Shown in pieces: positions 2,328-20,626 of a stretch of 64,000 nucleotides of DNA. Positions within the stretch are counted from its first letter, which is position 1. The number at the start of each line of letters is the position of its first letter. A model generated the notes under the pieces. That model did no database searches. It had not been told where the DNA came from and worked only from the letters and a program-made list of their open reading frames with translations. Source of the DNA: Spirochaetia bacterium (GTDB lineage: Bacteria > Spirochaetota > Spirochaetia > SZUA-6 > Bin103). The position numbers and the translations under genes were made by a program. The DNA is taken from NCBI GenBank assembly GCA_965203905.1, contig CBDBDQ010000005.1, forward strand, positions 6,688,001-6,752,000. The letters run 5' to 3'.

Positions 2328-2350
2328 CGCTAGGCTAGTCGTGGGCCGGG

Positions 2351-4799: not shown

Positions 4800-4902
4800 G
4801 ACGCACCGCGAATCGGCGTCGAGACGGCCGCCACCGCCGCGCAGCCGCGGGTCGAGCAGGTCGCGCACCGCGGCGCCGAACATGTTCAGGCAGTACACGA
4901 CT
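4800..4902 (-). pseudogene. Isolated dppC 3'-end fragment
   Basis: Translates VVYCLNMFGAAVRDLLDPRLRGGGGRL with no upstream dppC body. Confidence 0.8.
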
Positions 4903-4937
4903 TGTATTGAACATGGGCGGCGACCAGCGCCACCACA

Positions 4938-5258
4938 CCGCCGAAGCCCACCTCCGCGAACCCGACCCCCGCGCCTGCATGATCTCCTCGACGAGGGCAG
5001 CGCCGCCTTCGATTCGATCTTGATGCCCGGAACAACTCGCCGTCGGGATTCCACGGCCACGGGGCGGCCTTCTCGATGCAGGTATCGGCGTCCACACCCC
5101 ACACGTGGACCACGCTGTGCTCCGAGGCGATGCCGCGCAGGCCGGCGCCCATGCCGGTGCCGACGCCGAGACGGTTGATCGGGTAGCGGCTCGCCTCCAC
5201 GAACGCCGCCACCGCGTCGGGCGCTCGTCGGGCGTGTTGGCCTTGCACAGGAACTGCC
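4938..5258 (-). pseudogene. Frameshifted internal fragment of an HpcH/HpaI aldolase-like gene
   Basis: Across frames: FLCKANTP/DAVAAFVEASRYP...WPWNPDGEL/GIKIESKAAL/GVGFAEVG, recognised from memory of the family. Confidence 0.5.
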
Positions 5259-5259
5259 G

Positions 5260-5538
5260 CTACGATCCATAGTGGTATCGTGCCGCGATGAATCGCACGC
5301 TCGCTGTTTCGACTCGATAGACCAGACGGTGTTCCTGGTCGATACGCCGGGACCAGGCGCCGGCGAGCTGTCCTCGGAGCGGTTCCGGTTTACCCGGTCC
5401 GCCGAAGGGATCCCGGAGCACAGCCTCGATCAGTGATAGGATGCGTAGCGCGCGCCGCCGGTCGGTGCGGACCCAGTGCTCCAGGTCGTGCAGACAGTTC
5501 CGGTCGAAGAGCGCATTCCGGCGGCGGCCTTCCTTCAC
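5260..5538 (-). CDS. yoeB: Txe/YoeB family toxin
   Basis: DPFGGPGKPEPLRGQLAGAWSRRIDQEHRLVY...ARYHY; GTGA overlap with the antitoxin. Confidence 0.92.
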   Translation of the reverse strand: MKEGRRRNALFDRNCLHDLEHWVRTDRRRALRILSLIEAVLRDPFGGPGKPEPLRGQLAGAWSRRIDQEHRLVYRVETASVRFIAARYHYGS

Positions 5539-5819
5539 GTGCCATCGAGGCCGAGTCGTTCGCGGAGTTGTTCGATGCTCAGCGGCATGCCTTCCCCTGC
5601 GGCGGCGCGGCGGTTGCCGTCCAACAGGCGCTGCGCATTCCTGGGAGAGCGAAGCAGGTAAGCCGTCTCCATCCACCCCGCGAGATCATCGGCTGCGACC
5701 ATCGCGACCGGTGCCGCTCCGCGCCGGCGAATGAGGATCGGCTCGCGGGTGTCCGTTACCTGGTCCATGAGCGCCGCCAAGTGGGCACGCGCGTTGCTGT
5801 AGGTGGTTTCGTAGATCAT
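5535..5819 (-). CDS. yefM: Phd/YefM family antitoxin
   Basis: TYSNARAHLAALMDQV...PILIRR...ETAYLLRSPRNAQRL. Confidence 0.92.
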   Translation of the reverse strand: MIYETTYSNARAHLAALMDQVTDTREPILIRRRGAAPVAMVAADDLAGWMETAYLLRSPRNAQRLLDGNRRAAAGEGMPLSIEQLRERLGLDGT

Positions 5820-5832
5820 CGCGATTTCTTCC

Positions 5833-5851
5833 TGTACAGCAAAACGGTACA
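5833..5851. promoter_or_regulatory. Putative YefM operator
   Basis: TGTACA (5833-5838) and GGTACA (5846-5851) just upstream of yefM; TGTACA is the known core of the E. coli yefM-yoeB operator. Confidence 0.55.
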
Positions 5852-5859
5852 AGTAACCG

Positions 5860-5885
5860 GCCTGTTCGTCAACGACTACCATTGA
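5860..5885 (+). pseudogene. HigB toxin C-terminal remnant
   Basis: ...FVNDYH* 22 nt upstream of higA; HigB toxins typically end in (E)IVDYH*. Confidence 0.6.
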
Positions 5886-5907
5886 TCCCGTTCGAGGAGG
5901 CATCGAA

Positions 5908-6237
5908 ATGACCCGACTCGATCCGGTTCACCCTGGCGAAGTCCTCAAGCATGACTTTATGGAGCCTCTTGGCTTGTCGGCCACCATGCTTGCGAAGGCG
6001 CTCGGCGTGACGCCGGCGCGAATCAACGAGATCGTGCGCGGACGCCGCGGCATCACGGCCGAGACCGCGCTGCGCCTGGCGCGTTATTTCAACACCGATG
6101 CCCGGAGCTGGATGAACCTTCACGACCGCTACGAGCTCGAAATTGCGGCGCGGGACAAGGCCGAAGCGCTGCGCGCCATCCGTCCGCACGAAGTGGCCGC
6201 GCGCGGGAGCCGGGCGCCTGCTACGCGCCAGGTTTGA
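5908..6237 (+). CDS. higA: HigA family antitoxin (orphan)
   Basis: PVHPGEVLKHDFMEPLGLS...RINEIVRGRRGITAETALRLARYF; GAGGAGG RBS. Confidence 0.92.
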   Translation: MTRLDPVHPGEVLKHDFMEPLGLSATMLAKALGVTPARINEIVRGRRGITAETALRLARYFNTDARSWMNLHDRYELEIAARDKAEALRAIRPHEVAARGSRAPATRQV

Positions 6238-6336
6238 GGTAGCCGGTCAGCTCATGGGCTCTTGTGTGCCGGCTCGGCGTCGCCGCGGTTGTCGGTCAGC
6301 AGTGGCTGAATCAGCGCCAGCTCGTCCGCCGGCAGC
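6231..6336 (-). repeat. Degenerate copy of the 3' end of the PhyH gene (19791-19895)
   Basis: Direct alignment by eye: about 9 differences in 106 nt, including a 1-nt insertion. Confidence 0.9.
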
Positions 6337-6376
6337 AACTAAAACTAAACCCTCGCCCCTTGTGCTGAACCATGGG

Positions 6377-6736
6377 CTAAACGAGAAGGTCGAGATCCAC
6401 GTCCAATGCTTTTGCAATCGCCGCCAGGGTGGCGACAGATCCGTTACGGTTCCCGCGCTCGATCTGCGAAAGATAGAGCGAGCTGACGCCGACAGTCTGC
6501 GCGAGCTGCTTCTGCGTCATCCCACGGTACTCTCGAAACACCCGAATCGGGTTTTCTCCATCGACTATCTGGTCAGCCACTTCGCTCGGGAACATCTCCT
6601 GAGCCTTTGCACGATCACAGAGAGCTGCATCTTCGGCGTCCTCATCGATTGCGGCGAGGCGCTCATAGTCGCTCCACGGAATCACCGCAAACGTTGGGCG
6701 GCCGGTTTCGTCGACGATCACCTGCGGTTCGTTCAT
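6377..6736 (-). CDS. XRE-family HTH antitoxin-like regulator (orphan partner of a deleted RelE)
   Basis: PQVIVDETGRPTFAVIPWSDYERL...ENPIRVFREYRGMTQKQLA...YLSQIERG. Confidence 0.85.
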   Translation of the reverse strand: MNEPQVIVDETGRPTFAVIPWSDYERLAAIDEDAEDAALCDRAKAQEMFPSEVADQIVDGENPIRVFREYRGMTQKQLAQTVGVSSLYLSQIERGNRNGSVATLAAIAKALDVDLDLLV

Positions 6737-7010
6737 GTCATCCTCCTACTTCCGATGGCCAGCACATCGATCAAGCGGGCAGGGTCGTCCCGTATGAGAA
6801 GCACGCGACGGTTACCAACCCTCAGGCGGGGGTCGAGCAGACATCAGCGTTGGGCGGCCGGTTTCGTCGACGATCACCTGCGGTTCGTTCATGTCATCCT
6901 CCTACTTCCGATGGCCAGCACATCGATCAAGCGGGCAGGGTCGTCCCGTATGAGAAGCACGCGACGGTTACCAACCCTCAGGCGGGGGTCGAGCAGACAT
7001 CAGCGTTGGG
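6692..7010. repeat. Exact tandem duplication, 156-bp unit, bounded by 7-bp microhomology CGTTGGG
   Basis: CGTTGGG at 6692, 6848 and 7004; the two units are identical by eye. Confidence 0.92.
6733..6840 (-). pseudogene. RelE/ParE toxin C-terminal remnant fused to a dppC-like LLDPRL (second copy at 6889-6996)
   Basis: LLDPRLRVGNRRVLLIRDDPARLIDVLAIGSRRMT*; ATGA overlap with the HTH gene. Confidence 0.7.
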
Positions 7011-7365
7011 TGTCCGGTATCGCACGCATCCGAATGCGACGTTCGCTGATGACCGAGAAGTGTCCCTCCCACTCCACGTGCGACGCAAGGCTGTCGGCCA
7101 CAAATTGTGGCAGGGTGTCTTTCGACATGCCGGCGAGACGGAATAGCACAATGCCATGAGCCGCCGGCATACGCGCCCGGAACGCCAAGTCTCCGAAATC
7201 CTTGTCGAAGGTCACCAGGAGACGGGACTCTTCCGTAGCGCGGCTCAGTATGTTGGTGTCTGCAGTACCCGGTTCCCCTTCGGACACCCATGCCACGTCG
7301 TGTCCTGCGCTACGCAGCATCTCTACCGCGGCACCCGGCACATTTTCATCGGCGAGTATCCTCAT
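7000..7365 (-). CDS. DUF5615 PIN-like (Mut7-C-like) toxin
   Basis: MRILADENVP...GHDV...D..IL..A..E.RLLVTFDKDFG. Confidence 0.88.
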   Translation of the reverse strand: MRILADENVPGAAVEMLRSAGHDVAWVSEGEPGTADTNILSRATEESRLLVTFDKDFGDLAFRARMPAAHGIVLFRLAGMSKDTLPQFVADSLASHVEWEGHFSVISERRIRMRAIPDTQR

Positions 7366-7377
7366 GCCCACTGAGGG

Positions 7378-7611
7378 TTATGCGATTCCGACTGGAAACA
7401 CCTTCTCCGAACGCAACACATCGCCGGCGTACTGGAGGCAGGCCCTGATGTCATCGGTGCTGAGGCGCGGGTAGTTCGCAAGGATATCGGCTTCGCTCCA
7501 TCCCTGTGCCAGCAGGTCGATGATGAACTCCACGGCGAGCCGGGTTCCCCGTACCACCGGCTTGCCCGTCAGCACAGCCTCGTCAGCGACGATCCGTTCT
7601 TGCCAATTCAT
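7378..7611 (-). CDS. DUF433 antitoxin
   Basis: RIVADEAVLTGKPVVRGTRLAVEFIIDLLAQG...YPRLSTDDIRACLQYA. Confidence 0.9.
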   Translation of the reverse strand: MNWQERIVADEAVLTGKPVVRGTRLAVEFIIDLLAQGWSEADILANYPRLSTDDIRACLQYAGDVLRSEKVFPVGIA

Positions 7612-7737
7612 GTTCCGGTCCTCCCCGCTCTCCTTCAGAACTGCCTCGTGCCGGGACAAAATACCGCGAGTCTGTCGGTGTCACAACAGCCGCCGAAAGG
7701 CGGAGCGGGCTCGATGATTGGCTCCCCAGGGGAGTCG

Positions 7738-7829
7738 TCACTTGCGGGCCGCGGACGGGTGCCTCGGCGCCGAAGCGGCCGATGCCGCCGCGCGGGTGGG
7801 GGTCGAGCAGGTCGCGCAGCGCGTCGCCG
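7738..7829 (-). repeat. Degenerate copy of a dppC 3' end including the stop codon (closest to 11922-12012)
   Basis: About 8 differences in 92 nt versus the operon-3 dppC end; GDALRDLLDPHPRGGIGRFGAEA. Confidence 0.9.
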
Positions 7830-7831
7830 GG

Positions 7832-7960
7832 TACTGATATACGATGCAACGCGATGATCCGCTTGTTGACAGGGCTGGGGTTCTCCGTACGGGACGGCAG
7901 GAAGCAGGCGCACAAAGTTGTCACCCACCCCGGGCTCGCGGCGTTCACGTCCGCGCCATC
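7832..7960 (+). pseudogene. HicA-like toxin fragment
   Basis: DIRCNAMIRLLTGLGFSVRDGRKQAHKVVTHPGL resembles the HicA LxxLGF...GxHxxxxHP pattern; no start codon and no partner. Confidence 0.5.
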
Positions 7961-8004
7961 ACTAGTGAACACGAAGTGGCGTGAGACGTCTGCCGCGGCC
8001 GCGG

Positions 8005-8928
8005 TTACTTGCGGCCGGCGGGCGGGGCCTCTGCTGCCTGCTTCACGTTGGCTGCGCCGATGCGGCCGGCGCCGCCGGTCAGCCTGGGGTCGAGCAGGTC
8101 GCGCAGCGCGTCGCCGAACATGTTGATGCCGTACACCACGATGGCGAGGGACAGGCCGGGCCAGATCGCCAGCAACGGCGCCCGCTCCATGTACCGGCGG
8201 CCCTCGAGGCTCAGCATCCCGCCCCAGCTCGGCTGTGGTGGCGGAATGCCGAAGCCGAGGAAGCTGATGGTCGACTCGCTCAGAATCACCGCACCCAGGG
8301 AGATGGTGAAGACCACGATGATGGGCGGCCACACCTGCGGCAGGACGTGGTTGAGGAGGATCCTCCAGGTGGGGCAGCCGACGGCCCGCGCCGCCTCCAC
8401 GTACGGGTTCTGCTTGGTGCTCAACACCACGCCCCGTACGGTCCGGACGTTGCCGATGCCCGTGAACGCGCCGAGGACGACGATCATGGGCACCATGCCC
8501 TGTCCCAGGAGCGACATCACGGTCAGCACGATGAACAGCCACGGGAAGGTGAGCCAGGCATCGACGAATCGTTGGACGACCAGGTCGAACGTACCACCCC
8601 AGTAACCGGACAACAGACCGAAGAACAGGGCGATGACCAGGCCGATGGCGACGGCTCCCACTCCCACGATCATGGAGACGCGCGCCCCGTGAATGACGCG
8701 AGTCAGCAGGTCGCGGCCAAACTGGTCGGTGCCCAGCGGAAACTCGGCCGATGGTCCTTCGAGCGCGCGCCTGAGATTTTGGTCTCTGAGGTCGTGGGTG
8801 GCGAGCAGGTCGGCAAACACGCCCACCAGGAAGAACACCAGTACGATGATCAAACCGACGGCGCCGAGCTTCTTTTCCCGGAACAGCCGCGGCAGCAGGT
8901 CGCGAAGCGACCCCTTTCTGGCGCTCAC
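8005..8928 (-). CDS. Dpp/Opp ABC permease (DppC-like), operon 2
   Basis: PLGTDQFGRD, ESTISFLGFG, NMFGDALRDLLDPR; GTGA overlap with dppB. Confidence 0.93.
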   Translation of the reverse strand: MSARKGSLRDLLPRLFREKKLGAVGLIIVLVFFLVGVFADLLATHDLRDQNLRRALEGPSAEFPLGTDQFGRDLLTRVIHGARVSMIVGVGAVAIGLVIALFFGLLSGYWGGTFDLVVQRFVDAWLTFPWLFIVLTVMSLLGQGMVPMIVVLGAFTGIGNVRTVRGVVLSTKQNPYVEAARAVGCPTWRILLNHVLPQVWPPIIVVFTISLGAVILSESTISFLGFGIPPPQPSWGGMLSLEGRRYMERAPLLAIWPGLSLAIVVYGINMFGDALRDLLDPRLTGGAGRIGAANVKQAAEAPPAGRK

Positions 8929-9872
8929 TTGTACTGGATCCGCGGGTCGAGCCAGGCGTAGCTGATGTCGACGATGACGTTCACGAGCAACACGAATCCC
9001 GCCATCATCATATTCAGCCCCGCCAGCAGGGGATAGTCGCGCTGCTCCAGCGTTCTTACCACCAGCGAGCCGATACCGGGTATGTTGAATATGTGTTCCA
9101 CCACGACCGCGCCGCCGATCAGGACCGGAAGCTGCAGTCCGATCGTGGTAAGCACCGGGTTCAGCGCATTCTTCAGCGCGTGCCGTAACACGACCGCCCG
9201 CTCCCTGAGCCCCTTCGCCCACGCGGTGCGGATATAGTCCTGCCGCAGCACCTCCAGCATCATCGTGCGGGTCAAGCGCATGGTCACGCCGGACAGCCAC
9301 ATTCCCAGAACGATGGCGGGGATGATGAACATGGCCAGGTTGCCGAGCGGATCCTCCCAGAAGGAGACCCAGTACATGGGCGGCGACCACCGCCACCAGA
9401 CCGCCGGCAGGACCAGGATCATCGTCCCCAGCCAGAAGCTGGGGATGCAGATGAAAGCAATGGCGACGCTGCGCAGTATCTGGTCACCGGCAGACTCCGG
9501 CTTCAGACCGGAGTAGATGCCCACGGGAAGCGCTATCACCAGCGCGAACACCAGGGACAGGGCACCCAGCTCCAGCGACCTCGGCAGCCGCTCCAGGATG
9601 ACCTCTTCGACCGCGAGGTTGGTGAGCAGCGTCTCACCGAAGTCGCCCTGAAAGACGCCGGAAATCCAGCGTCCGTATTGGACGTGAGCGGGCAGATTCA
9701 GGCCAAGCTGCTCCCGCAGAGCCTCCATGGCTCCCGCGGACATGTATCTGAGTGAGACCATGTAATCGAGCACGTCCCCGGGGATGAGGCGCATCGAGAG
9801 GAACACGATAAGACTGACGATCAGCATCGTCGGCACGATCAGCAGCAGTCTTCTGACGATGTAGGCTTGCAT
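8925..9872 (-). CDS. Dpp/Opp ABC permease (DppB-like), operon 2
   Basis: YIVRRLL, EVLRQDYIRTAWAKGL, DPRIQY. Confidence 0.93.
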   Translation of the reverse strand: MQAYIVRRLLLIVPTMLIVSLIVFLSMRLIPGDVLDYMVSLRYMSAGAMEALREQLGLNLPAHVQYGRWISGVFQGDFGETLLTNLAVEEVILERLPRSLELGALSLVFALVIALPVGIYSGLKPESAGDQILRSVAIAFICIPSFWLGTMILVLPAVWWRWSPPMYWVSFWEDPLGNLAMFIIPAIVLGMWLSGVTMRLTRTMMLEVLRQDYIRTAWAKGLRERAVVLRHALKNALNPVLTTIGLQLPVLIGGAVVVEHIFNIPGIGSLVVRTLEQRDYPLLAGLNMMMAGFVLLVNVIVDISYAWLDPRIQYK

Positions 9873-9880
9873 ACGCGAAA

Positions 9881-9912
9881 GCGGGGGCCAGACCAGCCGG
9901 CCCAGCCCCCGC
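9881..9912 (-). terminator. Stem-loop between SBP and permease genes
   Basis: GCGGGGGC (9881-9888) pairs with GCCCCCGC (9905-9912). Confidence 0.5.
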
Positions 9913-9941
9913 GAACGGTCAGATCAGATCAGAGAGGGACG

Positions 9942-11759: not shown

Positions 11760-11809
11760 GCTATCCACCTCCTGTTCACTCGGGTTTCCGACCCGAAATG
11801 TTAGCTTGA

Positions 11810-11838
11810 ATTGTCTCACGGCCTACAACTCGGGTCAA
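11810..11838 (-). promoter_or_regulatory. Putative sigma70 promoter of operon 2
   Basis: TTGACC-N17-GACAAT on the minus strand. Confidence 0.45.
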
Positions 11839-11921
11839 CCAGCCGCACCGAAATGGACCGAAATGACGGTGCTGCGGCGGCTCAGCCAAGTAGCGTGAGA
11901 ACGTCTGCCGCGGCCGCGCGC

Positions 11922-12863: not shown

Positions 12864-13864
12864 CAGTCGTAGCGGATCCGTGGGTCGAGCCAGGCGTAAC
12901 TGATGTCGATCACGACGTTGACGACGAGCACGACCCCCGCCATGAGCAGGTTTATGGCGGTGACGATGGGGTAGTCACGTTTCTCGAGCGCTTCGATTAT
13001 CAGCGATCCGAGGCCCGGTATGTTGAAGATCTTCTCCACGATCACGGCGCCGCCAATCAGGACCGGCAACTGCAGTCCGATCATCGTGATCACCGGAATC
13101 GTGGCATTCTTGAGGACGTGGCGCATCACCAGCACCCGCTCCCGGAGCCCCTTCGCCCAGGCGGTGCGGACGTAGTCCTGGCGCAGCACCTCCAGCATCA
13201 TGGTGCGCGTAAATCGCATTATGATTCCCGACAGCAGCATCCCCTGGATGAGTGACGGCACGAACATCTGCGCCAGGTTGCCGAGCGGATCGTCGCCGAA
13301 TCGGACGAAGAACAAGGGCGGCGCCCAACGCCACCACAGCGCCGGGTAGACCACCACCATGGTGCCCAGCCAGAAGGCGGGAACGGTGACCAGCAGAATG
13401 GCAAAGCTGCGCAAAACCTGGTCGATGCCCGAGTCAGGCCGGATCCCGGAAATGATGCCCACCGGCAGCGCAATCAACAGCGAGAAGATGATTGCCATCA
13501 GACCGAGCTGGAGAGATATCGGCAGGCGGAACAGGATGTCCGTTCCGACCGGCTGCCTGGTCCACAGCGAATCTCCGAGCCGGCCCTGGAACAGTTCTCC
13601 GAGCCAGCGCACGTACTGAACGTGCGCCGGGACATCCAGTCCAAGCTGTGCGCGTAGCGTCTGCGCCAGTTGCTCCACAACCTCCTCGCTGCTCCCCACC
13701 AGATCCGTGGTCGTGGTTCCAAGGGACACGTACTGCTGCATGATCGCCACCATCAGGTCGATGACGTCCCCGGGAATCCAGCGAATCAGGAAGAACGCCA
13801 GCAGCGAGACGATGAATAGCGTGGGGATGATCAGAACGACCCGTCTGATGATGTAGGCAGTCAT
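12863..13864 (-). CDS. Dpp/Opp ABC permease (DppB-like), operon 3
   Basis: YIIRRVV, EVLRQDYVRTAWAKGL, DPRIRY. Confidence 0.93.
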   Translation of the reverse strand: MTAYIIRRVVLIIPTLFIVSLLAFFLIRWIPGDVIDLMVAIMQQYVSLGTTTTDLVGSSEEVVEQLAQTLRAQLGLDVPAHVQYVRWLGELFQGRLGDSLWTRQPVGTDILFRLPISLQLGLMAIIFSLLIALPVGIISGIRPDSGIDQVLRSFAILLVTVPAFWLGTMVVVYPALWWRWAPPLFFVRFGDDPLGNLAQMFVPSLIQGMLLSGIIMRFTRTMMLEVLRQDYVRTAWAKGLRERVLVMRHVLKNATIPVITMIGLQLPVLIGGAVIVEKIFNIPGLGSLIIEALEKRDYPIVTAINLLMAGVVLVVNVVIDISYAWLDPRIRYD

Positions 13865-13891
13865 CGAGCTATGGTTGCTGCTTCAAAGAAA

Positions 13892-13931
13892 GGGGCTGGC
13901 GACGGTCCCCGAAGGAAACTTCGCCAACCCC
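13892..13931 (-). terminator. Stem-loop between SBP and permease genes
   Basis: GGGGCTGGCGA (13892-13902) pairs with TCGCCAACCCC (13921-13931). Confidence 0.55.
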
Positions 13932-13962
13932 GTGACAGCTTATCGCGGTGCCAATTAGGCCG

Positions 13963-15786
13963 CTACGGCTGCATGTTCGTGTCGATCCAGATGTTCTTGG
14001 CCACCGAGTGCCAGCCCTGGATGCCGACGTTGCTCATCTCTCCGCTGTAGCCCTTCACCCATGGGTTCCAGAACGTCAGCTTATCGAACGCGACGCCGTG
14101 CGGATACGCGCTATCCTCCAGCGCCTTCGGAAAGAACTCCCGATACGCCGCGATCCGCTTCTGTTCGTCGAACTCGGTAGTCACAACCGCGGCGATCGCA
14201 TCGTACATCGGTTCGGTCGTCCGCGCGCTGTTGACCGTGGCGTTGGTGGTCAGCTGATTGAAAAGCAGCTCGTAATGGTGCTGCCACATGCCCGGCGTCC
14301 AACTCGTCAGCCCGAGGTGGTCCTCCCGGTCTTTGACCGACTGCCAGACCGCGCCCTCGACCACCTTGAGGTTGGCGCGGATGCCCACCTCGTTCCAGTA
14401 ACCCTGGTAGAGCTCGTTGAACTCGGCCTCACCCGGGGGACTCCACAGGTCGAACTCGAACCCATCGGGGTACCCGGCTGCGGCGAGACACTCGCGCGCC
14501 TTGTCGGGAAGGTACGTCACCACGTCGCGAGCGCTGGCGCACGAACCGGGTAGCGTGGGCTCGGTCGGCAGATCCTCGTACTCGACAAAGTAATCCGGGA
14601 ACGTCGGAAACGTCGGATACGAGTACTGAAGCGCGAATCCGCCGTAGAAGTCATTGACGACCTCGTCGCGCGGAATGGACATCATCAGCGCCTGCCGCAC
14701 CTTGATGTCACTGAACGGGCTGTCTGGCAGGTCCACGCGTGGCACCCAGACCGTGGGGGTCGGGGCGGCGGGCGCCTGGCCAATCTCGGGGTTCGTGTCC
14801 TTGAGCTGCAGCCCCCACTTGCCCGACGAGCCGAGGCCGTTGGTCAGGTCGATCTGACCAGCCCGCAACGCGGCGACGATCGACGCCTCGTCGTCGAAGT
14901 CGACGATGCGCAGGTTGTCAGCGTAGGGCAGCCGATTCTCGGGGTGAATCGGATCGTTCTCCCAGTAGTTGGGATTGCGCTTGTAGGTGACCGTGCTGCC
15001 AGGTACGTAGTCGGTGGGGATGTAGGCGCCGGTACCGAGTGCGTTTTGCCAGTCCCCCCATTCGCCTTCCGGGATGTTCGCCATCCCGCTGTTGAAGGTG
15101 AACAGGTACATCGATAGTTGGAAAGCCGCCAGGAGTGGGTCCGGCGTGGGCCACGACACCTCCAGGGTGTAGTCGTCGAGGGCGGTATAGGTGGAAACGC
15201 CGGGCAGGCCCTGCTGGTACCAGTTCGACGTGTTCTTGGAGAAGACCACGTCATGGGCAGTCAGCTCGCGCCCGTAGTCAGCCTGCAGCCCGGGATTCGC
15301 CTGCGCTACGTCCTCTTCCTCCCAGAAGTGGATGCCTCTGCGAATCTTGAACACCATCGACGTCTGGTTGGGGATTGTCCAGCTCTCCGCCAGCATGGGA
15401 ACAGCCAGGGCTGGTGGGTTCGCCGCTGTATACTGCCGCACGTCGTATTCACCGGTACCGGACGGACCATGCGCCCAGTCCAGCTGCGAGAGGCGCTGGT
15501 TGGTTATCTGGACATTCGCCAACTCGTGCGGTCCGCCGCCGCTCCGTGGATCCCAGAGCGAGAACGAGACCAGCAGGATCTCGCGGTTCATGGTGATCGT
15601 GCCACCATAGCGCGGTTTCTCGTACTGTCTGGTCATGGTCGTGCCGTCGAGCCTGGTGAGCTCCACGTCGACGAACTCTGCCTCGGCGGCGGCTTCCTCT
15701 GCGGCCGAGGCCCACAGGGCAGTCGACGTCAGCACGAGTCCGAGCCCGAGCATGACTGCCGCCGCCCTCCTGATGGAAAGAATCAA
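13963..15786 (-). CDS. ABC transporter substrate-binding protein, family 5, operon 3
   Basis: TTG start after AAAGGAG; paralog of the operon-1 SBP (VELTR.DGTTM...EKPRYGG); NPNYW, VRQALMMSI. Confidence 0.9.
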   Translation of the reverse strand: MILSIRRAAAVMLGLGLVLTSTALWASAAEEAAAEAEFVDVELTRLDGTTMTRQYEKPRYGGTITMNREILLVSFSLWDPRSGGGPHELANVQITNQRLSQLDWAHGPSGTGEYDVRQYTAANPPALAVPMLAESWTIPNQTSMVFKIRRGIHFWEEEDVAQANPGLQADYGRELTAHDVVFSKNTSNWYQQGLPGVSTYTALDDYTLEVSWPTPDPLLAAFQLSMYLFTFNSGMANIPEGEWGDWQNALGTGAYIPTDYVPGSTVTYKRNPNYWENDPIHPENRLPYADNLRIVDFDDEASIVAALRAGQIDLTNGLGSSGKWGLQLKDTNPEIGQAPAAPTPTVWVPRVDLPDSPFSDIKVRQALMMSIPRDEVVNDFYGGFALQYSYPTFPTFPDYFVEYEDLPTEPTLPGSCASARDVVTYLPDKARECLAAAGYPDGFEFDLWSPPGEAEFNELYQGYWNEVGIRANLKVVEGAVWQSVKDREDHLGLTSWTPGMWQHHYELLFNQLTTNATVNSARTTEPMYDAIAAVVTTEFDEQKRIAAYREFFPKALEDSAYPHGVAFDKLTFWNPWVKGYSGEMSNVGIQGWHSVAKNIWIDTNMQP

Positions 15787-15907: not shown

Positions 15908-15937
15908 ACTGTAGCTCTCGGCACAGTCCTTGGTCAA
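15908..15937 (-). promoter_or_regulatory. Putative sigma70 promoter of operon 3
   Basis: TTGACC-N18-TACAGT; its spacer GCTCTCGGCACAG recurs at 16019-16031. Confidence 0.4.
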
Positions 15938-16055
15938 TGTGGGGCGGGGCCGGCCTGGGCCGGCCGACGTCCTCGCGCGGCATCGGATAGCGCCCCGAAA
16001 CCGTCGCCTGGTGGCGTCGCTCTCGGCACAGCCCCGCCTATGGTACTGCCACGAG

Positions 16056-17228
16056 TCACTGCGCTCGCTCGTTGAGAATCTCACCGTCCCACAGGGCGGT
16101 AAGGAATTCCGTCACCGGGAGCAGTTCGATGCCATCGACGATTCGCGGCACCGACTCGCCGCACACCACGATGCGCCTCCGCAGCGGCACTTCCTCGGCC
16201 AGCCGGCGGAGTCCGGTCAGGGCGCGCGGTGCAACGGCGCCGCTGGCCTTCACCTCGATCGCCACGCTGTCACCGACCACGAAGTCGACCTCCGAGCCAT
16301 CGATCGTGCGCCAGAACGTGAGTGCACGGGCGTCACGGCTGTATCCGAGCCGGGCTCGCAGCTCGCAGAAGACGAGGTGCTCCAGGGCACGACCGAACGC
16401 GGCGCTGCCTGCCTCGATCCGCGTAATCCCGGCCAGGACGTTGGCTACCCCGACGTCGAACAGGTAGAACTTGGCGTGCGACACGGGCTTGCGGCTCGCA
16501 CGCTTCGGAGTGAACGGCTGCAGCAGCGACCCCAGCAACGTGTCTTCCAGCACCTGGAAATACTCGCGGACCGTGCGCGCCGGCACGGCCGCATCGGAGG
16601 CCAGCCGCTCGAATACCACCTGCTGACCGCAGGCGAGCGCTGCAGCGGTCAGGAAACGCGAGAACGGCTCCACACCGCGCACCAGACCTTCCGCCTGGAT
16701 CTCCAGCTGCAGATAGTTCCCGCAGTAGGCCCGCAGATCCTCGATCGGGTCGTCGGAGAAGTAGATCGAAGGGATACCCCCAACATTGATGGCCCGCATC
16801 AACTCCCAGTTTGGGACTTCCGCCGATACGAACGGGAACAGGCGGCGTGTCCGGGCGCGGCCGCCGAGCAGGTTGACTCCGCCTCGGCGCAGCTTGGCCG
16901 GGCTGCTGGCAGCCAGTATGAACTGCAGGCCCCGGGATTCGATGAGATCGTGCACGTCATCGAGCAGACTGGGCAGTTTCTGAATCTCGTCGATAATCAC
17001 CGGTGCCGAGGTACGAGAGACCGTGGCCAACTCCTGCCGCAGCCGTCCCGGCTCGCGGGACAGCCGGAGGAACACCTCGCCGCGGAGCAGATTGAACACC
17101 GGAGAGTGCGGAAAAAGCGTGCTCAGATAGGTTGTCTTTCCGGTCTGCCGAGGGCCGAACAGGAACACGGACCGGAAGCGAAGGTCGGGAGCGAGATCAA
17201 GACGGCGACGAACGGTCGGCTCGGTCAT
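16056..17228 (-). CDS. AAA_14 ATPase with DUF4143 and C-terminal PD-(D/E)xK-like domain
   Basis: GPRQTGKT (Walker A), IIDEIQK (Walker B), KFYLFDVG, EVDFVV...IEVK. Confidence 0.9.
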   Translation of the reverse strand: MTEPTVRRRLDLAPDLRFRSVFLFGPRQTGKTTYLSTLFPHSPVFNLLRGEVFLRLSREPGRLRQELATVSRTSAPVIIDEIQKLPSLLDDVHDLIESRGLQFILAASSPAKLRRGGVNLLGGRARTRRLFPFVSAEVPNWELMRAINVGGIPSIYFSDDPIEDLRAYCGNYLQLEIQAEGLVRGVEPFSRFLTAAALACGQQVVFERLASDAAVPARTVREYFQVLEDTLLGSLLQPFTPKRASRKPVSHAKFYLFDVGVANVLAGITRIEAGSAAFGRALEHLVFCELRARLGYSRDARALTFWRTIDGSEVDFVVGDSVAIEVKASGAVAPRALTGLRRLAEEVPLRRRIVVCGESVPRIVDGIELLPVTEFLTALWDGEILNERAQ

Positions 17229-17260
17229 ATCTCCGAGTCTACTCTCTCGCTTGAACAATC

Positions 17261-17305
17261 GCAACTATTCTGCGGGAAATATTTATTTTTCCGCAACAGA
17301 GTTGC
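17261..17305. promoter_or_regulatory. Imperfect palindrome upstream of the DUF4143 ATPase (putative operator/promoter)
   Basis: GCAACT-ATTC-TGCGGGAAA...TTTTCCGCA-ACAG-AGTTGC around an AT-rich core. Confidence 0.5.
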
Positions 17306-17337
17306 GGATAATACTCATCAACCCGCATTCGGAGTGC

Positions 17338-17479
17338 CTACCACATCACCTAGGCCGCCGGGGGTGTTGACGTCCTGGCCGGTGAAGCTGCCGGCCTCCT
17401 CGGAGGCGATGAACACCGCCATGGCGGCGGCTTCGTCGGGGGTGCCGTGGTCCTGCACGGAGCCCTCGGTCTGCAGCCA
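17338..17479 (-). repeat. Degenerate direct repeat of the SDR gene 3' end including the stop codon (18896-19036)
   Basis: About 8 differences in 142 nt, including a 1-nt insertion. Confidence 0.93.
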
Positions 17480-17519
17480 CCGGTGCGACGGTTGGCGGAG
17501 CCGCCTCGGCGACGATACG

Positions 17520-18758
17520 TCACCGTAGCCTCCCAAGCAGGAAATCGACGAGATTCCGCCATCGAATGCCGTCACGGTTCGCCGGCTGTGCGGTATCGAG
17601 CGACAGAACCAGCTTGGGATGGTTATCGGGCATCTGCCAGAGTGACCGGTATTCCCGCTCGACCGTCTCCTCGTTCGACAGCGAGTAACACACCTGGACG
17701 TAGAGTCGTTCGGTCCGCCGCTCGGCGACGAAGTCGATTTCGTAGTGCCGGAACTTGCCAACGCTGACCGTGTATCCACGGGCGAGCAGTTCCAGGAAGA
17801 CAACGTTCTCGAGTAACCCGGCAATATCGTTGTCCCGGTAGCCAATCAGGCCGTGACGGATACCGATGTCGGTCATATAGAACTTGTCGTAGAGTTCCAG
17901 GCGGCGCATGCCCTTCAGGTCGTACCTCCGGCAGCGGAATACGAGGTAAGCCTCCTCCAGATATGAGAGGTAGTTCTGAACCCGCGATAGAGAAACGCTC
18001 AGTCCCTGCGCCTTCAGGTAGTCCGTCATGCGCTTGGCCGTCGTGATGTTGCCGCAGTTGTCGAACAGGAAGCGCGTGATGCTGTCCAGTTGAGCCGGCT
18101 CTCTGACTTCGTGCCGATTGACCACGTCCTTCAACACGATCGTATGGTAGAGCGAGTTGAGATAGGTGAATACCGGCTCATCTTCCAGACTCAGGTAGTG
18201 AATGCCGGGGAACCCGCCATAGCGCAGGAAGCTGGTCCAGGCCCCCAAGACGTCCGGTGAGCTCCGTTCTATCCCCTGGAATTCGATGAACTCCGAGAAC
18301 AGCAACGGATACACTGGGATCTCGACATACCGCCCCGTGAGCCGCGTTGCAAGGTCGGACGAAAGCAAGCGCGCGTTCGACCCACTGATCGTGACATCCG
18401 CCAACCCATCGGCAACAACCGACGCGATCGCCCGCTCCCACTCGAAGACATTCTGCACCTCATCCACGAACAGGTAGGACTCTGCGCTGCCTCGAAGGTG
18501 GTGGCGAACATAGTCATAGAGCTTGCGGTAGTCGGCGAGGGCCTCGAACTGCAGCGACTCCATGTTGATGCTCAGAATGTTGGCGGGAGACACCCCGCCT
18601 GCAATGAGCCGGTCGATCAGCAGTTGAATGAGCGCGCTCTTGCCGGCTCTCCTGACCCCGGTAATCACCTTGACGAGAGGCTTGTTCATGAAGGGGAGGA
18701 TGCGTTCGGTATACAGGGGTCGCGGGATCAGCTCCAGAATGGCGCTCCTATATGGCAA
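17520..18758 (-). CDS. AAA_14 ATPase with DUF4143
   Basis: GVRRAGKS, FVDEVQ, SGSNA, LTGRYVEIPVYPL, YGGFP, KFYMTDIG, EIDFV...YVQV; lower GC than flanks. Confidence 0.92.
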   Translation of the reverse strand: MPYRSAILELIPRPLYTERILPFMNKPLVKVITGVRRAGKSALIQLLIDRLIAGGVSPANILSINMESLQFEALADYRKLYDYVRHHLRGSAESYLFVDEVQNVFEWERAIASVVADGLADVTISGSNARLLSSDLATRLTGRYVEIPVYPLLFSEFIEFQGIERSSPDVLGAWTSFLRYGGFPGIHYLSLEDEPVFTYLNSLYHTIVLKDVVNRHEVREPAQLDSITRFLFDNCGNITTAKRMTDYLKAQGLSVSLSRVQNYLSYLEEAYLVFRCRRYDLKGMRRLELYDKFYMTDIGIRHGLIGYRDNDIAGLLENVVFLELLARGYTVSVGKFRHYEIDFVAERRTERLYVQVCYSLSNEETVEREYRSLWQMPDNHPKLVLSLDTAQPANRDGIRWRNLVDFLLGRLR

Positions 18759-18895
18759 TCTTATTCATGCCGGAAGGAAAGATTGTGTCATACAGGTATC
18801 TTTTCGCATAGCCCCGGGGCTCCGGCAGGCGGCCGAACGCGGAGGCCTCTCGACCGGCGTGAGTCAGCCGAGCCGGCCCGGCGGCGCGGTTGCGG

Positions 18896-19732
18896 CTACC
18901 ACATGACGTAGCCGCCGGGGGTGTTGACGTCCTGGCCGGTGAAGCTGCCGGCCTCGTCGGAGGCGATGAACACCGCCATGGCGGCGGCATCGTCGGAGGT
19001 GCCGTGGTCCTGCACGTAGCCCTCGGCCTGCAGCCAGTGGCCGCACAGCACCTTGTTGGCCGGCTTGGGGCCGGGCCGGTAGTTGATGTAGGTATTCTCG
19101 TCGAACGGCTCGCCGACGTACTCCGCGAACGCCTTGGCGAGTTCGTGGTCGCGCGCGCTGTGGCCGCCGGGGCAGATGGCGTTGACGGTGATGTTGTAGC
19201 GGCCCACCTCCGCCGCCAGCGTGCGGGTGAGGCCGATCACCGCCATCTTGCTGGTGGCGTAGGACGAGCGATGCGCCAGCGGCTGCTTGCCGGTGGGCGA
19301 GCTGAACATGATGATCCGGCCCCGCCGCCGTTCGATCATCGATGGCAGCGCCGCCTTGCAGCACAGGAAAATCGAGTCGAGATTGACCGCCAGCACCTGC
19401 TTCCACTCGGCCAGCGAGAGGTCCCACAGGTCCTTGGTCGGGCCGGCGATGCCGACCACCGGTGCGACGATGTCGATGTGACCGTACTCGGCGAGCGTGC
19501 GCTCCACCATCTCGTTCACCTGCCGTTCGTCCGACACGTCGGTCCGGAAGCACAGCGCGCGGCTGCCCGCCTCCCGGACCTGCGCCCCGGTGGTTGCGTC
19601 CAGCTCCTCGGGCGGAATCAGGTCGCAGATGGCCAGCAGCGCGCCCTCGGCGGCGAACCGCCTGGCCATGGCCTCCGCGTGGCCGCGCGCCGCGCCGGTT
19701 ATCAGCGCCACCTTGTCTTGCAAGCGTCCCAT
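18896..19732 (-). CDS. Short-chain dehydrogenase/reductase
   Basis: KVALITGAARG, YATSK (YxxxK), NAICPG, FTGQDV. Confidence 0.9.
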   Translation of the reverse strand: MGRLQDKVALITGAARGHAEAMARRFAAEGALLAICDLIPPEELDATTGAQVREAGSRALCFRTDVSDERQVNEMVERTLAEYGHIDIVAPVVGIAGPTKDLWDLSLAEWKQVLAVNLDSIFLCCKAALPSMIERRRGRIIMFSSPTGKQPLAHRSSYATSKMAVIGLTRTLAAEVGRYNITVNAICPGGHSARDHELAKAFAEYVGEPFDENTYINYRPGPKPANKVLCGHWLQAEGYVQDHGTSDDAAAMAVFIASDEAGSFTGQDVNTPGGYVMW

Positions 19733-19774
19733 GGTCTCTCCTCCTTGTCGGTTCCGTTCGTGTCCGCGTGTCGG

Positions 19775-20626
19775 TTACCCGCGCGCGGCGGGTTTGAGGT
19801 AGCCGCTCAGTTCATAGCTCTTGTACGCCGGCTCGGCGTCGCCGCGGTAGTCGGTCAGCAGCGGCTGAATCAGCGCCAGGTCGTCCGCCGGCAGCGACGC
19901 CGACGGCGGCTGGACAGCCATCTGATAGGAGGCGCGCAGCCGCTCGCTCAGCTCGTCGTAGCGCGGCAGGTACCACGTGGTGAGCACGGTGCGCCGACGG
20001 CCGGTGGTGTTGGCGTGCGCCGCGTGCAGCACGCGCGAGTCGCCGACCACCAGGTCGCCCGCCGTCACCGGCACGTCGACCTCGCCGGGCAGCGTCTGGT
20101 AGCCGGCCGTGGTGGCGGGGTCGCGGTGGCGGATGCCGTCGTCGTGGCTGCCGATCAGGTCGTGGGCCTCCAGGCGGCGCCGGTGCGACTGCGGCAGCAC
20201 CCGCAGGCACCCATTCTCGCGCCGCGTGTCGGTGAGGTACCACATCAGAAACAACTGGTGCGGCACTGGGTCGGCGCTCTCCGGCTCCCTCCACCACACC
20301 CAGTCCTGGTGCCAGTACAGCGACGTGGAGTGCGCCTCCTTGCAGATCACCGAACCGGACCAGTAGCGCGCGCCATCGAAGCCCAGCTCGCGCAACGCGG
20401 CCCAGGTGGGCGGCCAGGCAATCAGCTCGACGAACGCCCGATCCTGGAAGCGGATCGACACCACGCTGCCCTGGTTGCCGCGGCGCTGTCTCTCCTCCTC
20501 CGGGTAGGCGTCGAGCAGCCGGTCGCTTGCCAGCCGCAGGCGTGCCAGCAGGTCGCCGTCGAGCAGTCCGGGAAACACGCAGAATCCGTCGTCCAGCAGT
20601 TGCTGCCGCTTGCTCCGCTCGTTCAT
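19775..20626 (-). CDS. Phytanoyl-CoA dioxygenase (PhyH) family protein
   Basis: DDGFCV, WHQD, ENGCLRVLPQSH, AGDLVV...LHAAHAN...RR. Confidence 0.88.
   Translation of the reverse strand: MNERSKRQQLLDDGFCVFPGLLDGDLLARLRLASDRLLDAYPEEERQRRGNQGSVVSIRFQDRAFVELIAWPPTWAALRELGFDGARYWSGSVICKEAHSTSLYWHQDWVWWREPESADPVPHQLFLMWYLTDTRRENGCLRVLPQSHRRRLEAHDLIGSHDDGIRHRDPATTAGYQTLPGEVDVPVTAGDLVVGDSRVLHAAHANTTGRRRTVLTTWYLPRYDELSERLRASYQMAVQPPSASLPADDLALIQPLLTDYRGDAEPAYKSYELSGYLKPAARG

What the first reader, a model, noticed from the sequence alone, without database searches (positions are those of the whole stretch)
4800..19895. Integrase-less cassette arrays in which cargo genes are followed by 'echoes' of resident gene 3' ends
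Seen, reading the minus strand: dppC2 > HicA fragment > dppC-end echo (7738-7829) > DUF433/DUF5615 > 18-nt dppC echo 3 nt after the stop > RelE remnant/HTH > PhyH-end echo 40 nt after the stop > inverted higA > yefM/yoeB > aldolase fragment directly after the stop > dppC-end echo (4800-4902). Separately: SDR > DUF4143 ATPase > SDR-end echo 40 nt after the stop > second DUF4143 ATPase. The three longer echoes with a match in the window are about 90-94% identical to intact genes and run to or near a stop codon. No integrase, transposase, attC or terminal inverted repeat is visible. Inference: circular or linear DNA carrying [gene 3' end + cargo] integrates Campbell-style at the 3' end of ordinary genes. 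This restores the gene, leaves the old end downstream and builds integron-like arrays of TA/defence-type cargo with coding-sequence anchors.
Basis: partly seen in the sequence, partly recalled or inferred. Interest (0 to 1): 0.82.

Follow-up and report, generated by a model that had tools for sequence, protein, structure and literature searches.

The report
Gene-end echoes flank inserted defence cargo
Short decaying copies of ordinary genes' ends sit behind inserted toxin-antitoxin and defence genes all over this sponge-associated spirochaete genome, and they look like scars of recombinase-free insertion by the cell's own recombination, a kind of event already described for restriction-modification genes.

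Summary
The echoes are real. The "aldolase" piece is internal to its gene, and the HicA and RelE labels were not confirmed.

The pattern is genome-wide. There are 31 cases of gene > cargo > copy of that gene's own 3' end within 15 kb. Cargo is often TA or defence genes.

Congeners hold empty sites behind SDR, FTHFS and Pyr_redox. Echo-versus-gene mismatches fall 107:100:220 by codon position, so many copy pairs diverged as working genes in separate lineages. The last 142 nt of SDR are 0-2.8% divergent among the five genomes with an occupied site, against 1.4-8.8% (1.4% only for the near-identical G004/G006 pair) upstream. The gene end therefore appears to travel with cargo.

Best reading: additive integration of DNA from relatives by one homologous crossover plus one illegitimate join, followed by deletion decay.

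It is not integron-like. 5' ends and internal pieces are also duplicated, and part of the 4.8-8 kb array is deletion debris.

The signature matches "insertion with long target duplication" (Furuta et al. 2010). This scan has also found it on other DNA.

The parts
18896..19732 (-). SDR (adh_short) gene, the host gene of the cleanest site. Homology with all congeners stops at its stop codon (18896).
   Evidence: Pfam
17520..18758 (-). Cargo 1: AAA_14+DUF4143 ATPase 'a', GC 0.58-0.59. Found at other places in G001, G004 and G006 at 89-90%.
17338..17479 (-). Echo of the last 142 nt of SDR, through the stop, with a 1-nt insertion. Six of its 7 differences are unique to the echo.
17310..17337 (-). 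About 25 nt of presumed native SDR-downstream spacer. It shares only a short motif (GGGTTGA) with the spacer of G008, so the assignment is weak.
   Evidence: inference
16056..17309 (-). Cargo 2 (older): AAA_14+DUF4143 ATPase 'b' with an AT-rich upstream region. Only 24% aa identity to 'a'.
19775..20626 (-). PhyH gene, the best match (89.7%) of the echo at 6224-6339.
11922..15785 (-). ABC operon 3 (SBP_bac_5, dppB-type, dppC-type). Its dppC end is the best match for the echo at 7740-7829.
8005..11768 (-). ABC operon 2. It lies between dppC3 and the dppC3-type echo. Its own last ~24 nt plus ~35 nt downstream are dppC3-type, whereas relatives' dppC2 tails differ.
7830..8004 (-). That label was not confirmed.
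7740..7829 (-). Echo of a dppC3-type 3' end (92.2%, 1-nt indel). It has a sharp 5' break at 7829/7830.
7000..7659 (-). DUF433 (7378-7659) and DUF5615/PIN-like (7000-7371) pair. Also present at this locus in G006 and G007, absent in G001, G004, G009 and G010.
6692..7022 (-). 2.1 copies of a 156-nt perfect tandem duplication, joined at a CCCAACG microhomology. Each full copy holds the 20-nt dppC3-like piece.
6377..6736 (-). HTH_3 protein with a weak RelB/Phd-like N-terminus. In run X18 a contig joins its start region to the DUF4143a end.
6224..6339 (-). Echo of the PhyH 3' end (89.7%).
5908..6237 (+). HigA-like HTH_3 gene, inverted. Found elsewhere in G001 at 90%.
5260..5882 (-). yefM/yoeB toxin-antitoxin pair. 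Found at other loci in G001, G006 and G008 at 89-92%.
4940..5252 (-). Internal fragment (residues 137-233 of 314) of an HpcH aldolase. In relatives a matching aldolase segment lies 460-520 nt from dppC2 (only the ~280 nt matching the G000 fragment was aligned).
4909..4943 (-). 33-nt internal dppB piece (94% to 9374-9406).
4571..4913 (-). dppC 3' end (4794-4913) plus its own downstream flank (to 4571). It is a remnant of another copy of the operon family that is amplified just upstream of the window.
365..4153 (-). ABC operon 1 (SBP_bac_5, dppB-type, dppC-type), downstream of the array.

Best explanation
The echoes are scars of recombinase-free, additive acquisition of DNA from related lineages.

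Proposed mechanism (inferred):
1. A donor fragment carries the end of a conserved gene (sometimes also the start of the next gene) together with neighbouring accessory cargo.
2. It enters the chromosome by one homologous crossover inside that gene and one illegitimate join. This can happen either as a circularised fragment integrating Campbell-style, or as a linear fragment by homology-facilitated illegitimate recombination.
3. Nothing of the recipient is lost, so the gene stays intact. Its displaced original end stays downstream, next to the native spacer or to older cargo.
4. The redundant copy then decays and is whittled by deletions.

Repeats of this process at the same gene end stack cargo, with the newest nearest the gene. 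Retention of older cargo because it is addictive (toxin-antitoxin) is plausible but untested.

Shown here: the repeats, the empty sites, the foreign orthologue pieces, the codon-position bias and the near-identity of the SDR end.
Inferred: the crossover and join themselves, the route of DNA entry and the role of addiction.
For: 1. Recurrence. 31 direct, downstream 3' echoes lie within 15 kb of their own source gene. The other three direct terminal classes number 11-14, and only 5 near-source fragments of any class are inverted.

2. Cargo. In the 18 loci scanned by Pfam, the genes between gene and echo include HicAB, HTH/Gp49, MNT/HepT, M78+DUF4411, Phd/PIN, DUF433/DUF5615, NYN and AAA-ATPase_like/PDDEXK_9. 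They also include unknowns and ABC operons.

3. Empty sites in congeners.
- SDR stop, then 144-181 nt, then SBP3 in G010 and G009.
- FTHFS stop, then 21-47 nt, then the next gene in G003, G008, G009 and G010.
- G001 has Pyr_redox followed by the older RelE-type region, without HicAB or an echo.

4. FTHFS site. The order is FTHFS, spacer', D'(1-35), cargo, D'(34-180), FTHFS echo (166 nt), spacer, D. D' is 85% identical to the genome's own D. It is 80-85% identical over its longer part, and 83-94% over its 35-nt part, to relatives' D. The FTHFS echo is 95.8% identical to the current end. D' is therefore a foreign orthologue piece that came with the cargo.

5. Codon positions. Over the 31 echo-gene pairs (4850 aligned nt), mismatches fall 107:100:220 by codon position, with 209 synonymous and 218 non-synonymous.

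6. SDR end. The last 142 nt differ by 0-2.8% among G000, G001, G004, G006 and G007 (occupied sites), against 5.6-8.8% in the first 695 nt (1.4% for the near-identical G004/G006 pair). Against the empty-site genomes G009 and G010 the last 142 nt differ by 4.9-9.2% (5.6-7.0% for G000).

7. The two DUF4143 proteins are only 24% identical, so this is not a tandem gene duplication.

8. Strain-level variants in public contigs have joints at the SDR stop and at dppC ends. One contig lacks the whole 4809-7980 array. A unitig in a second run bridges echo to DUF4143a with 0 differences.

9. Precedent. Donor DNA circles integrate by a single crossover without loss of recipient DNA, and are later trimmed by deletions (PMC9551528, abstract and section 8 read).

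10. The genome encodes Ku, ComEC and DprA. This is circumstantial.
Against: - No circular form, excision product or donor was observed. Only contigs, not raw reads, could be laid.
- At SDR, 6 of the 7 echo-gene differences are unique to the echo, so the pair could equally have started identical in situ.
- At PhyH-HEAT the echo, not the current end, is the more divergent copy. This fits the model only if the crossover lay near the stop.
- Genome-wide, the 3' bias vanishes when 60 nt of slack is allowed at 5' ends (161:157).
- The perfect 156-nt tandem duplication shows that local duplication does occur here without foreign DNA.
- Gene calls are from my own codon-usage caller, and the relatives are MAGs.
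- The stop-codon-precise loss of homology (15 of 20) is expected from coding constraint alone and is not evidence of site choice.
Confidence: 0.6

Rival explanations
1. Purely local turnover. Segmental or tandem duplications arise by microhomology or by recombination between the many paralogous ABC operons. Deletions then leave gene-end remnants, and cargo arrives independently.
For: - Perfect 156-nt tandem duplication at a CCCAACG microhomology.
- Four operon copies whose dppC genes are mostly 92-100% identical to reference operon B, in 50-nt windows over the coding part (lowest window 86%), within 60 kb upstream.
- Composite remnants: aldolase internal + dppB 33 nt + dppC end; internal 57 nt + 3' 108 nt at Pyr_redox; 5' 121 nt + 3' 173 nt at AKR.
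- Differences between the SDR echo and the gene are mostly unique decay.
Against: - D' at the FTHFS site is as far from the genome's own D as from relatives' D, while the adjacent FTHFS echo is 95.8% identical.
- Excess of third-position and synonymous differences.
- The SDR end is near-identical across species with occupied sites only.
- The two DUF4143 proteins are 24% identical.
- Cargo is absent from the same site in relatives and present at other loci.
Confidence: 0.2
2. True long target-site duplication. A staggered double-strand break (nicks 45-500 nt apart) is filled in, and foreign DNA is captured by end joining.
For: - Ku is present (it rings in 1 of 14 control genomes).
- Variable repeat lengths of 45-522 nt.
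- The published signature left the mechanism open and suggested double-strand breakage (PMC2853133).
Against: - It predicts two recipient-derived copies identical at birth. That does not fit the synonymous-biased differences or the foreign D' pieces and unequal spacers at FTHFS.
- Cargo at FTHFS lies inside one repeat copy, not between the copies.
Confidence: 0.1
3. Site-specific integration by recombinases acting in trans, giving accretion of recombinase-less elements at att sites inside gene 3' ends, as with CIME or pseudo-SCC arrays.
For: - Stacked cargo beside gene ends.
- Integrase fragments, an IS110 and a DDE transposase lie 15-40 kb upstream of the window.
Against: - At least 14 different host genes are involved.
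- Repeat lengths run from 45 to 1364 nt.
- Composite and 5'-end repeats occur.
- No shared motif was seen by eye in the 20 junction pairs printed.
- No inverted repeats.
Confidence: 0.05
4. Assembly artefact: false partial duplications created when a strain mixture was assembled into one MAG.
For: - The genome's relatives are titled MAGs.
- Contamination estimate 7.9%.
- Several strains are visible in the runs.
Against: - Echoes carry indels and internal deletions and are 80-96% identical, not allele-like.
- k-mer unitigs with 0 differences cover echo junctions. X15 contigs cover 16266-17383 and 4000-4849. X17 contig 17402-18330 bridges echo to DUF4143a.
- Like structures occur in three other genomes.
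Confidence: 0.05

Closest known systems
Insertion with long target duplication of restriction-modification gene units (Nobusato et al. 2000, recalled via citation; Furuta, Abe & Kobayashi 2010, PMC2853133, passages read)
   Same: - The insert is flanked by long, variable direct repeats (30 to >400 bp) that are single-copy in an empty-site genome.
- No transposase or integrase is present.
- The repeat may overlap a gene's 3' end.
   Different: - Cargo here is toxin-antitoxin pairs, DUF4143 and PDDEXK-type ATPases, unknown genes and even whole ABC operons, not R-M genes.
- There are dozens of cases in one genome.
- Repeats are often decayed or composite.
- The evidence here points to import of the repeat from another lineage, rather than to breakage by the cargo's own nuclease.
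Integration of donor DNA circles by a single crossover after conjugation, then trimming deletions (Bartke et al. 2022, PMC9551528; abstract and section 8 read)
   Same: - Diverged orthologous DNA is added without loss of recipient DNA.
- Partial duplicates result.
- Later deletions remove donor and recipient DNA alike.
   Different: - That work was a laboratory Hfr cross with 0.16-1.3 Mb circles formed between repeated genes.
- Here the pieces are 0.7-10 kb and natural, and the circle is only inferred.
Homology-facilitated illegitimate recombination in natural transformation (de Vries & Wackernagel 2002; Prudhomme et al. 2002; both recalled, not read here)
   Same: One homologous anchor plus one illegitimate join brings in foreign DNA.
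   Different: As I recall it, the laboratory events usually delete recipient DNA. Here recipient DNA is retained and duplicated.
Accretion of integrative elements at the 3' end of a gene (SCCmec and pseudo-SCC at rlmH/orfX; ICESt/CIME at fda; tRNA-targeting islands). Recalled.
   Same: - The gene end is restored by the incoming element.
- The old end or att copy is displaced.
- Tandem stacks form, including members without a recombinase.
   Different: Those use a dedicated site-specific recombinase and a short constant core. Here there are many target genes, variable repeat lengths and no core.
Integron cassette arrays
   Same: Stacked small cargo, often toxin-antitoxin, in one orientation beside a fixed point.
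   Different: No IntI, no attI/attC structure, and no constant cassette boundary.

Membership tests
Insertion with long target duplication (criteria of Furuta et al. 2010) | Insert flanked by direct repeats longer than 30 bp | tested here: met
   SDR end and its echo, 142 nt at 94-96%. Thirty further near-source cases of 45-575 nt alignment length.
Insertion with long target duplication (criteria of Furuta et al. 2010) | The repeat aligns to a single copy in a related genome that lacks the insert (empty site) | tested here: met
   G009 and G010 for SDR. G003, G008, G009 and G010 for FTHFS. G001 for Pyr_redox/HicAB.
Insertion with long target duplication (criteria of Furuta et al. 2010) | No other mobile element (transposase, integrase, phage genes) in or beside the insert; insert under 20 kb | tested here: met
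   Pfam of the ORFs in 4100-8100 and of the called genes in 365-23847 shows none. No terminal inverted repeats. Inserts are 0.7-13 kb.
Insertion with long target duplication (criteria of Furuta et al. 2010) | Insert contains both R and M gene homologues | tested here: not met
   Cargo is AAA_14+DUF4143, TA pairs and the like. The signature is shared, the R-M link is not.
Integron | IntI-type tyrosine recombinase next to the array | tested here: not met
   No Phage_integrase hit among the ORFs scanned in 4100-8100 or the 16 called genes submitted from 365-23847. Only integrase fragments about 22 kb upstream of the window. The whole genome was not searched for IntI.
Integron | attC imperfect inverted repeats at each cassette boundary | tested here: not met
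   Only 4 weak inverted pairs were found, none at cassette ends.
Site-specific integrative element at a gene 3' end (ICE/CIME, SCC) | Constant short att core shared by all junctions of an array | tested here: not met
   The 20 junction pairs share no motif by eye. Repeat lengths are 45-522 nt.
Campbell-type / HFIR additive integration | One repeat copy, or flanking pieces, derived from a different lineage than the recipient | tested here: met
   D' pieces at FTHFS. Codon-position bias 107:100:220. SDR end near-identical across species.
Campbell-type / HFIR additive integration | Circular intermediate or direct observation of the event | not testable with these tools
   Only assembled contigs of public runs could be laid.
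Type II toxin-antitoxin modules (the cargo) | Adjacent small toxin and antitoxin genes with family domains above the curated cut-off | tested here: met
   YoeB_toxin 107 bits and PhdYeFM 65 bits; DUF433 80 bits and DUF5615 86 bits. Toxicity and neutralisation were not tested.

The most novel reading that the evidence does not exclude
The very numerous, conserved 3' ends of dppC-type permease genes (167 strong copies) may act in this lineage as portable homologous 'attachment sites'. Anything lying between two such ends (TA pairs, defence genes, whole ABC operons) could loop out as a circle by RecA and re-enter at any other dppC end, in the same cell or after transfer. That would be an integrase-free, integron-like cassette economy, and it would also explain the tandem amplification of the ABC operons.

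Hints:
- dppC-type genes give 76 of 683 orphan fragments, against 12 for the equally numerous dppB-type genes.
- G000's dppC2 carries a dppC3-type tail.
- Inverted dppC ends sit right after the SDR stop in G004, G006 and one strain of run X17.
- Four operon copies are mostly 92-100% identical and interleaved with cargo.
Probability: 0.15. Interest if true: 0.8.

Novelty: new variant of a known kind. Interest (0 to 1): 0.5.

Why it matters
How small defence and toxin-antitoxin modules spread without any mobility gene is a standing question. The published "long target duplication" signature was tied to restriction enzymes and left without a mechanism.

This one genome gives dozens of dated scars, with many cargo types. 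It also gives three lines of evidence that the duplicated gene end comes in with the cargo from another lineage: foreign orthologue pieces, the codon-position bias and a near-identical gene end across species. That would make ordinary homologous recombination the vehicle.

If this holds, echoes could serve as a simple genomic marker for recent recombinase-free acquisitions and for the order in which cargo was stacked.

The case is still another instance of a known kind. It rests on comparative inference in MAGs, not on an observed event.

Tried and rejected
- Stop-codon precision as a sign of site choice. In 15 of the 20 nearest cases, homology between the gene end and its echo ends within -10 to +5 nt of the stop. 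Orthologous empty-site spacers of G008, G009 and G010 are also unalignable right after the stop. Coding constraint therefore explains it, and I rejected it as evidence of targeting.
- Genome-wide 3' bias. It is 167:91 at 12-nt tolerance but 161:157 with 60 nt of slack at 5' ends, so I did not use it as support.
- Tandem duplication of [SDR end + DUF4143]. Rejected because the two proteins are 24% identical.
- tRNA next to the PhyH-HEAT echo. ARAGORN found none, and Rfam found none at E<=0.01.
- Which copy is native. At PhyH-HEAT the echo is the more divergent copy. At FTHFS there is no difference. At SDR one informative site only. Unresolved.
- Elevated mismatches in the last 100 nt of Pyr_redox proved to be only the last ~10 nt.
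- Laid contigs. No circular or excised form was seen, and contigs cannot show rare forms. Parts without cover mean nothing.
- Literature. No paper was found that links long target duplication to TA cargo. Supplements were not consulted.
- The search of earlier findings for this genome returned nothing.
- One search had a strand-labelling bug, corrected.

Full report
**Setting.** The window is C5:6688001-6752000 of a 7.99-Mb, ~65% GC genome. Relatives found with the SDR protein are titled "MAG: Spirochaetia bacterium". Public runs that hold the region are mostly sponge and coral metagenomes. On the minus strand of window 365-15785 lie three paralogous SBP_bac_5/dppB/dppC operons with no ATPase genes between them, followed upstream by two AAA_14+DUF4143 genes, an SDR and a PhyH gene. 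The 70 kb upstream of the window hold about eight more such operons, all in the same orientation. They are interleaved with MazF, AbiEii, ParE/Phd, PIN and HigB modules, AAA ATPases, an IS110, a DDE transposase and integrase fragments.

**Checking the observation.**
- The dppC3-type echo at 7740-7829 (92.2%).
- The PhyH echo at 6224-6339 (89.7%).
- The SDR echo at 17338-17479 (94-96%).
- The dppC end at 4794-4901.
- The 20-nt dppC3-like piece 3 nt after the DUF5615 stop (19 of 20 matches).

The cargo families are confirmed by Pfam.

Three details needed correction:
- The "HicA fragment" and "RelE remnant" labels found no support.
- The aldolase piece is internal to its gene (residues 137-233 of 314).
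- The dppC end at 4794-4901 is only 82-83% identical to the window's dppC genes, but 95-98% identical to dppC ends of an operon family just upstream. Members of that family are mostly 92-100% identical to each other along the whole dppC coding sequence.

That last echo continues into its own downstream flank (to 4571). It is preceded by a 33-nt dppB piece and then the aldolase piece. The block therefore looks like what deletions left of another [aldolase ... operon] copy.

**Is it general?** I called genes with a codon log-odds model (7,196 calls). I then blasted the 3,332 gaps between 5,362 strong CDS against those CDS.
- 683 orphan fragments remained: 403 internal, 167 3'-terminal, 91 5'-terminal and 22 full.
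- Fragment midpoints are U-shaped along genes. 149 fragments end within 2 nt of a gene's end.
- The 3' excess over 5' ends is not robust. It falls to 161:157 if 60 nt of slack is allowed for my start calls.

The clear signal lies near the source gene. Within 15 kb there are 31 direct, downstream 3' echoes, against 11 (3', upstream), 14 (5', upstream) and 13 (5', downstream). Only 5 near-source fragments are inverted (which corrects a strand bug).

Pfam of 86 called genes in 18 such loci shows what lies between gene and echo:
- Recognised TA or defence-type cargo: HicB/HicA, HTH_3/Gp49, Polbeta-NTase/HepT, Peptidase_M78+DUF4411, NYN, AAA-ATPase_like/PDDEXK_9, DUF2971, and Phd/PIN with DUF433/DUF5615.
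- Seven loci with proteins of no family.
- Two inverted ABC operons.
- One transporter duplicate.

As an internal control for detectability, dppC-type permeases (167 CDS) yield 76 orphan fragments, while the equally numerous and related dppB-type permeases (172 CDS) yield 12. The operon-terminal gene is the one that leaves scars.

**Empty and filled sites.**
- *SDR.* Homology with every congener stops at the SDR stop codon. G010 and G009 have 144 and 181 nt between SDR and SBP3. G007 has 715 nt. G006 and G004 have 3.1-4.5 kb and then DUF4143a. After the echo's stop come about 25 nt that share only a short motif with the G008 spacer. DUF4143b homology with other genomes starts just beyond that.
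- *FTHFS.* G003, G008, G009 and G010 have 21-47 nt between FTHFS and the next gene D.
- *Pyr_redox.* G001 lacks HicAB and the echo, and goes straight on to the RelE-type region that follows the echo in G000. The HicAB junction lies about 10 nt before the original stop, and the echo keeps the native-length end.
- *Cargo elsewhere.* The cargo units themselves occur at other loci in relatives at 85-95% identity.
- *Same signature in relatives.* Those other loci include cases where cargo is again flanked by long direct repeats of local gene ends: 1364 nt at 87%, 128 nt at 87% and 286 nt at 96%.
- *Public contigs.* One contig joins 4808 to 7981, so it lacks the whole array. One joins an inverted dppC end to the SDR stop. 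One joins the DUF4143a end to the HTH gene. A unitig from a second run bridges echo to DUF4143a without a difference.

**What the copies say about origin.**
1. At FTHFS the order is FTHFS, spacer', D'(1-35), cargo, D'(34-180), FTHFS echo, spacer, D. D' is 85% identical to the genome's own D, and about as close to relatives' D. The adjoining FTHFS echo is 95.8% identical to the current end. The cargo therefore came with flanks of a foreign orthologous locus. One homologous crossover of a circularised donor piece reproduces this order exactly. So does a homologous crossover plus an illegitimate join of a linear piece.
2. Over the 31 echo-gene pairs, mismatches fall 107:100:220 by codon position, and 209 of 427 are synonymous. 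A good part of the divergence therefore arose while both copies were working genes. Individual pairs range from purely synonymous (0:0:6 and 0:2:12) to decay-like (SDR 2:1:4).
3. The last 142 nt of SDR differ by 0-2.8% among the five genomes with an occupied site, against 5.6-8.8% in the first 695 nt (1.4% for the near-identical G004/G006 pair). Against the two empty-site genomes the same 142 nt differ by 4.9-9.2%. The tract of near-identity to G000 has different lengths in different genomes, roughly 93-186 nt. G008 could not be placed because its contigs break in this repeat.
4. The single informative site between echo and current end groups the current end with G004 and G006, the two genomes that carry DUF4143a near SDR. 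This is a hint only.
5. Composite echoes show that the duplicated stretch was often much longer at first and was then whittled by deletion. Examples are an internal 57 nt + 3' 108 nt at Pyr_redox, 5' 121 nt + 3' 173 nt at an aldo-keto reductase, and a copy of a 73-nt element that natively lies 1-1.7 kb upstream of the gene, placed next to the PhyH-HEAT echo.

**The in-window arrays re-read.**
- *SDR site.* The likeliest history is a first insertion of DUF4143b into the spacer about 25 nt after the stop, without duplication. A later additive insertion of [SDR end + DUF4143a] then left the 142-nt echo.
- *Site between operons 2 and 1.* The dppC3-type echo brackets operon 2 itself. G009, G010, G001, G004 and G006 have operon 3 followed by operon 2. 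G007 has a dppC3 end, a 59-nt piece of SBP2 (98%) and then DUF433/DUF5615. G000's dppC2 ends in a dppC3-type tail. Recombination between dppC ends has evidently moved an operon here, but the order of events is not resolved.
- *DUF433/DUF5615.* The pair is at this locus in G000, G006 and G007, and absent in four others.
- *Other pieces.* The yefM/yoeB and higA units sit elsewhere in relatives. The 156-nt perfect tandem duplication joins at CCCAACG, which is shared by the DUF5615 end and the HTH gene start. That is a purely local event.

**Comparison with what is known.** The signature fits "insertion with long target duplication". That class is defined by repeats over 30 bp, an empty site in a relative and no mobility genes. 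It was described for restriction-modification units, with the mechanism left open and double-strand breakage by the cargo suggested (PMC2853133, passages read). The R-M criterion is not met here. I found no paper that ties the signature to TA cargo. Integration of donor circles by a single crossover without loss of recipient DNA, followed by trimming deletions, has been shown at megabase scale in the laboratory (PMC9551528). Merodiploids made by transformation are on record (PMC3784515, search listing only). HFIR and SCC/CIME accretion are recalled from memory, not read.

This scan has met the same kind of scar on other DNA at least 13 times, with the same closest-known assignment. Those notes agree with my reading but were not tested here.

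**Verdict.** Parts of the array are plain deletion debris. What this case adds is the cargo range, the density of cases and the evidence that the gene end comes in with the cargo.

**Limits.** Gene calls are my own. The relatives are MAGs. No raw reads were available. No event was observed.

Noticed in passing
window 6692-7022: Perfect 156-nt tandem duplication (2.1 copies), joined at a CCCAACG microhomology between the DUF5615 3' end and codons 14-16 of the HTH gene. The first copy carries a truncated 16-codon start of that gene.
   Followed up: partly
G000 C5:6622000-6688000 (L001-L004): About eight SBP_bac_5/dppB/dppC operons lie on one strand without ATPase genes. Four have dppC copies mostly 92-100% identical to each other, and several are truncated. 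They are interleaved with TA/defence genes, IS110, a DDE transposase and integrase fragments.
   Followed up: partly
window 4309-4713 (+): 134-aa ORF with coding-like codon usage and no Pfam family. It has a 54%-identical paralogue at C5:7571572-7571991.
   Followed up: no
L044:3237-3309 and G000 C5:2664603-2664676: A 73-nt element conserved at 82-92% lies within about 2.1 kb upstream of the PhyH-HEAT gene (about 0.8-1.2 kb in most congeners, 1.7 kb in G000). It is duplicated next to the echo. It is not a tRNA (ARAGORN) and has no Rfam match.
   Followed up: partly
L044:1558-1644 and L044:2697-2925: An 87-nt element upstream of the MNT/HepT pair recurs at 91-95% in G000, G001, G004 and G006. 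A ~200-nt element has more than ten copies in G000. Both are unclassified repeats.
   Followed up: no
G000 C5:2123944-2124831: The last ~95 nt of this gene occur seven times as orphan fragments around the genome (82-87% identity), as if the gene end overlaps a dispersed repeat family.
   Followed up: no
L023 and L024 (G008 contigs C40, C255): Two contigs of a short-contig relative end exactly inside the SDR 3' end (96-99% identity). The SDR end is therefore probably repeated in that genome too.
   Followed up: no
window 22132-23847 (+): 571-aa DUF222 protein just beyond the finding. Not examined further.
   Followed up: no
L053 (G000 C5:1577542-1581471): Two 511-aa Na/Pi-cotransporter genes with identical Pfam scores lie 860 nt apart, between a dksA/traR-type gene and its 3' echo. 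This looks like a recent tandem duplicate.
   Followed up: no
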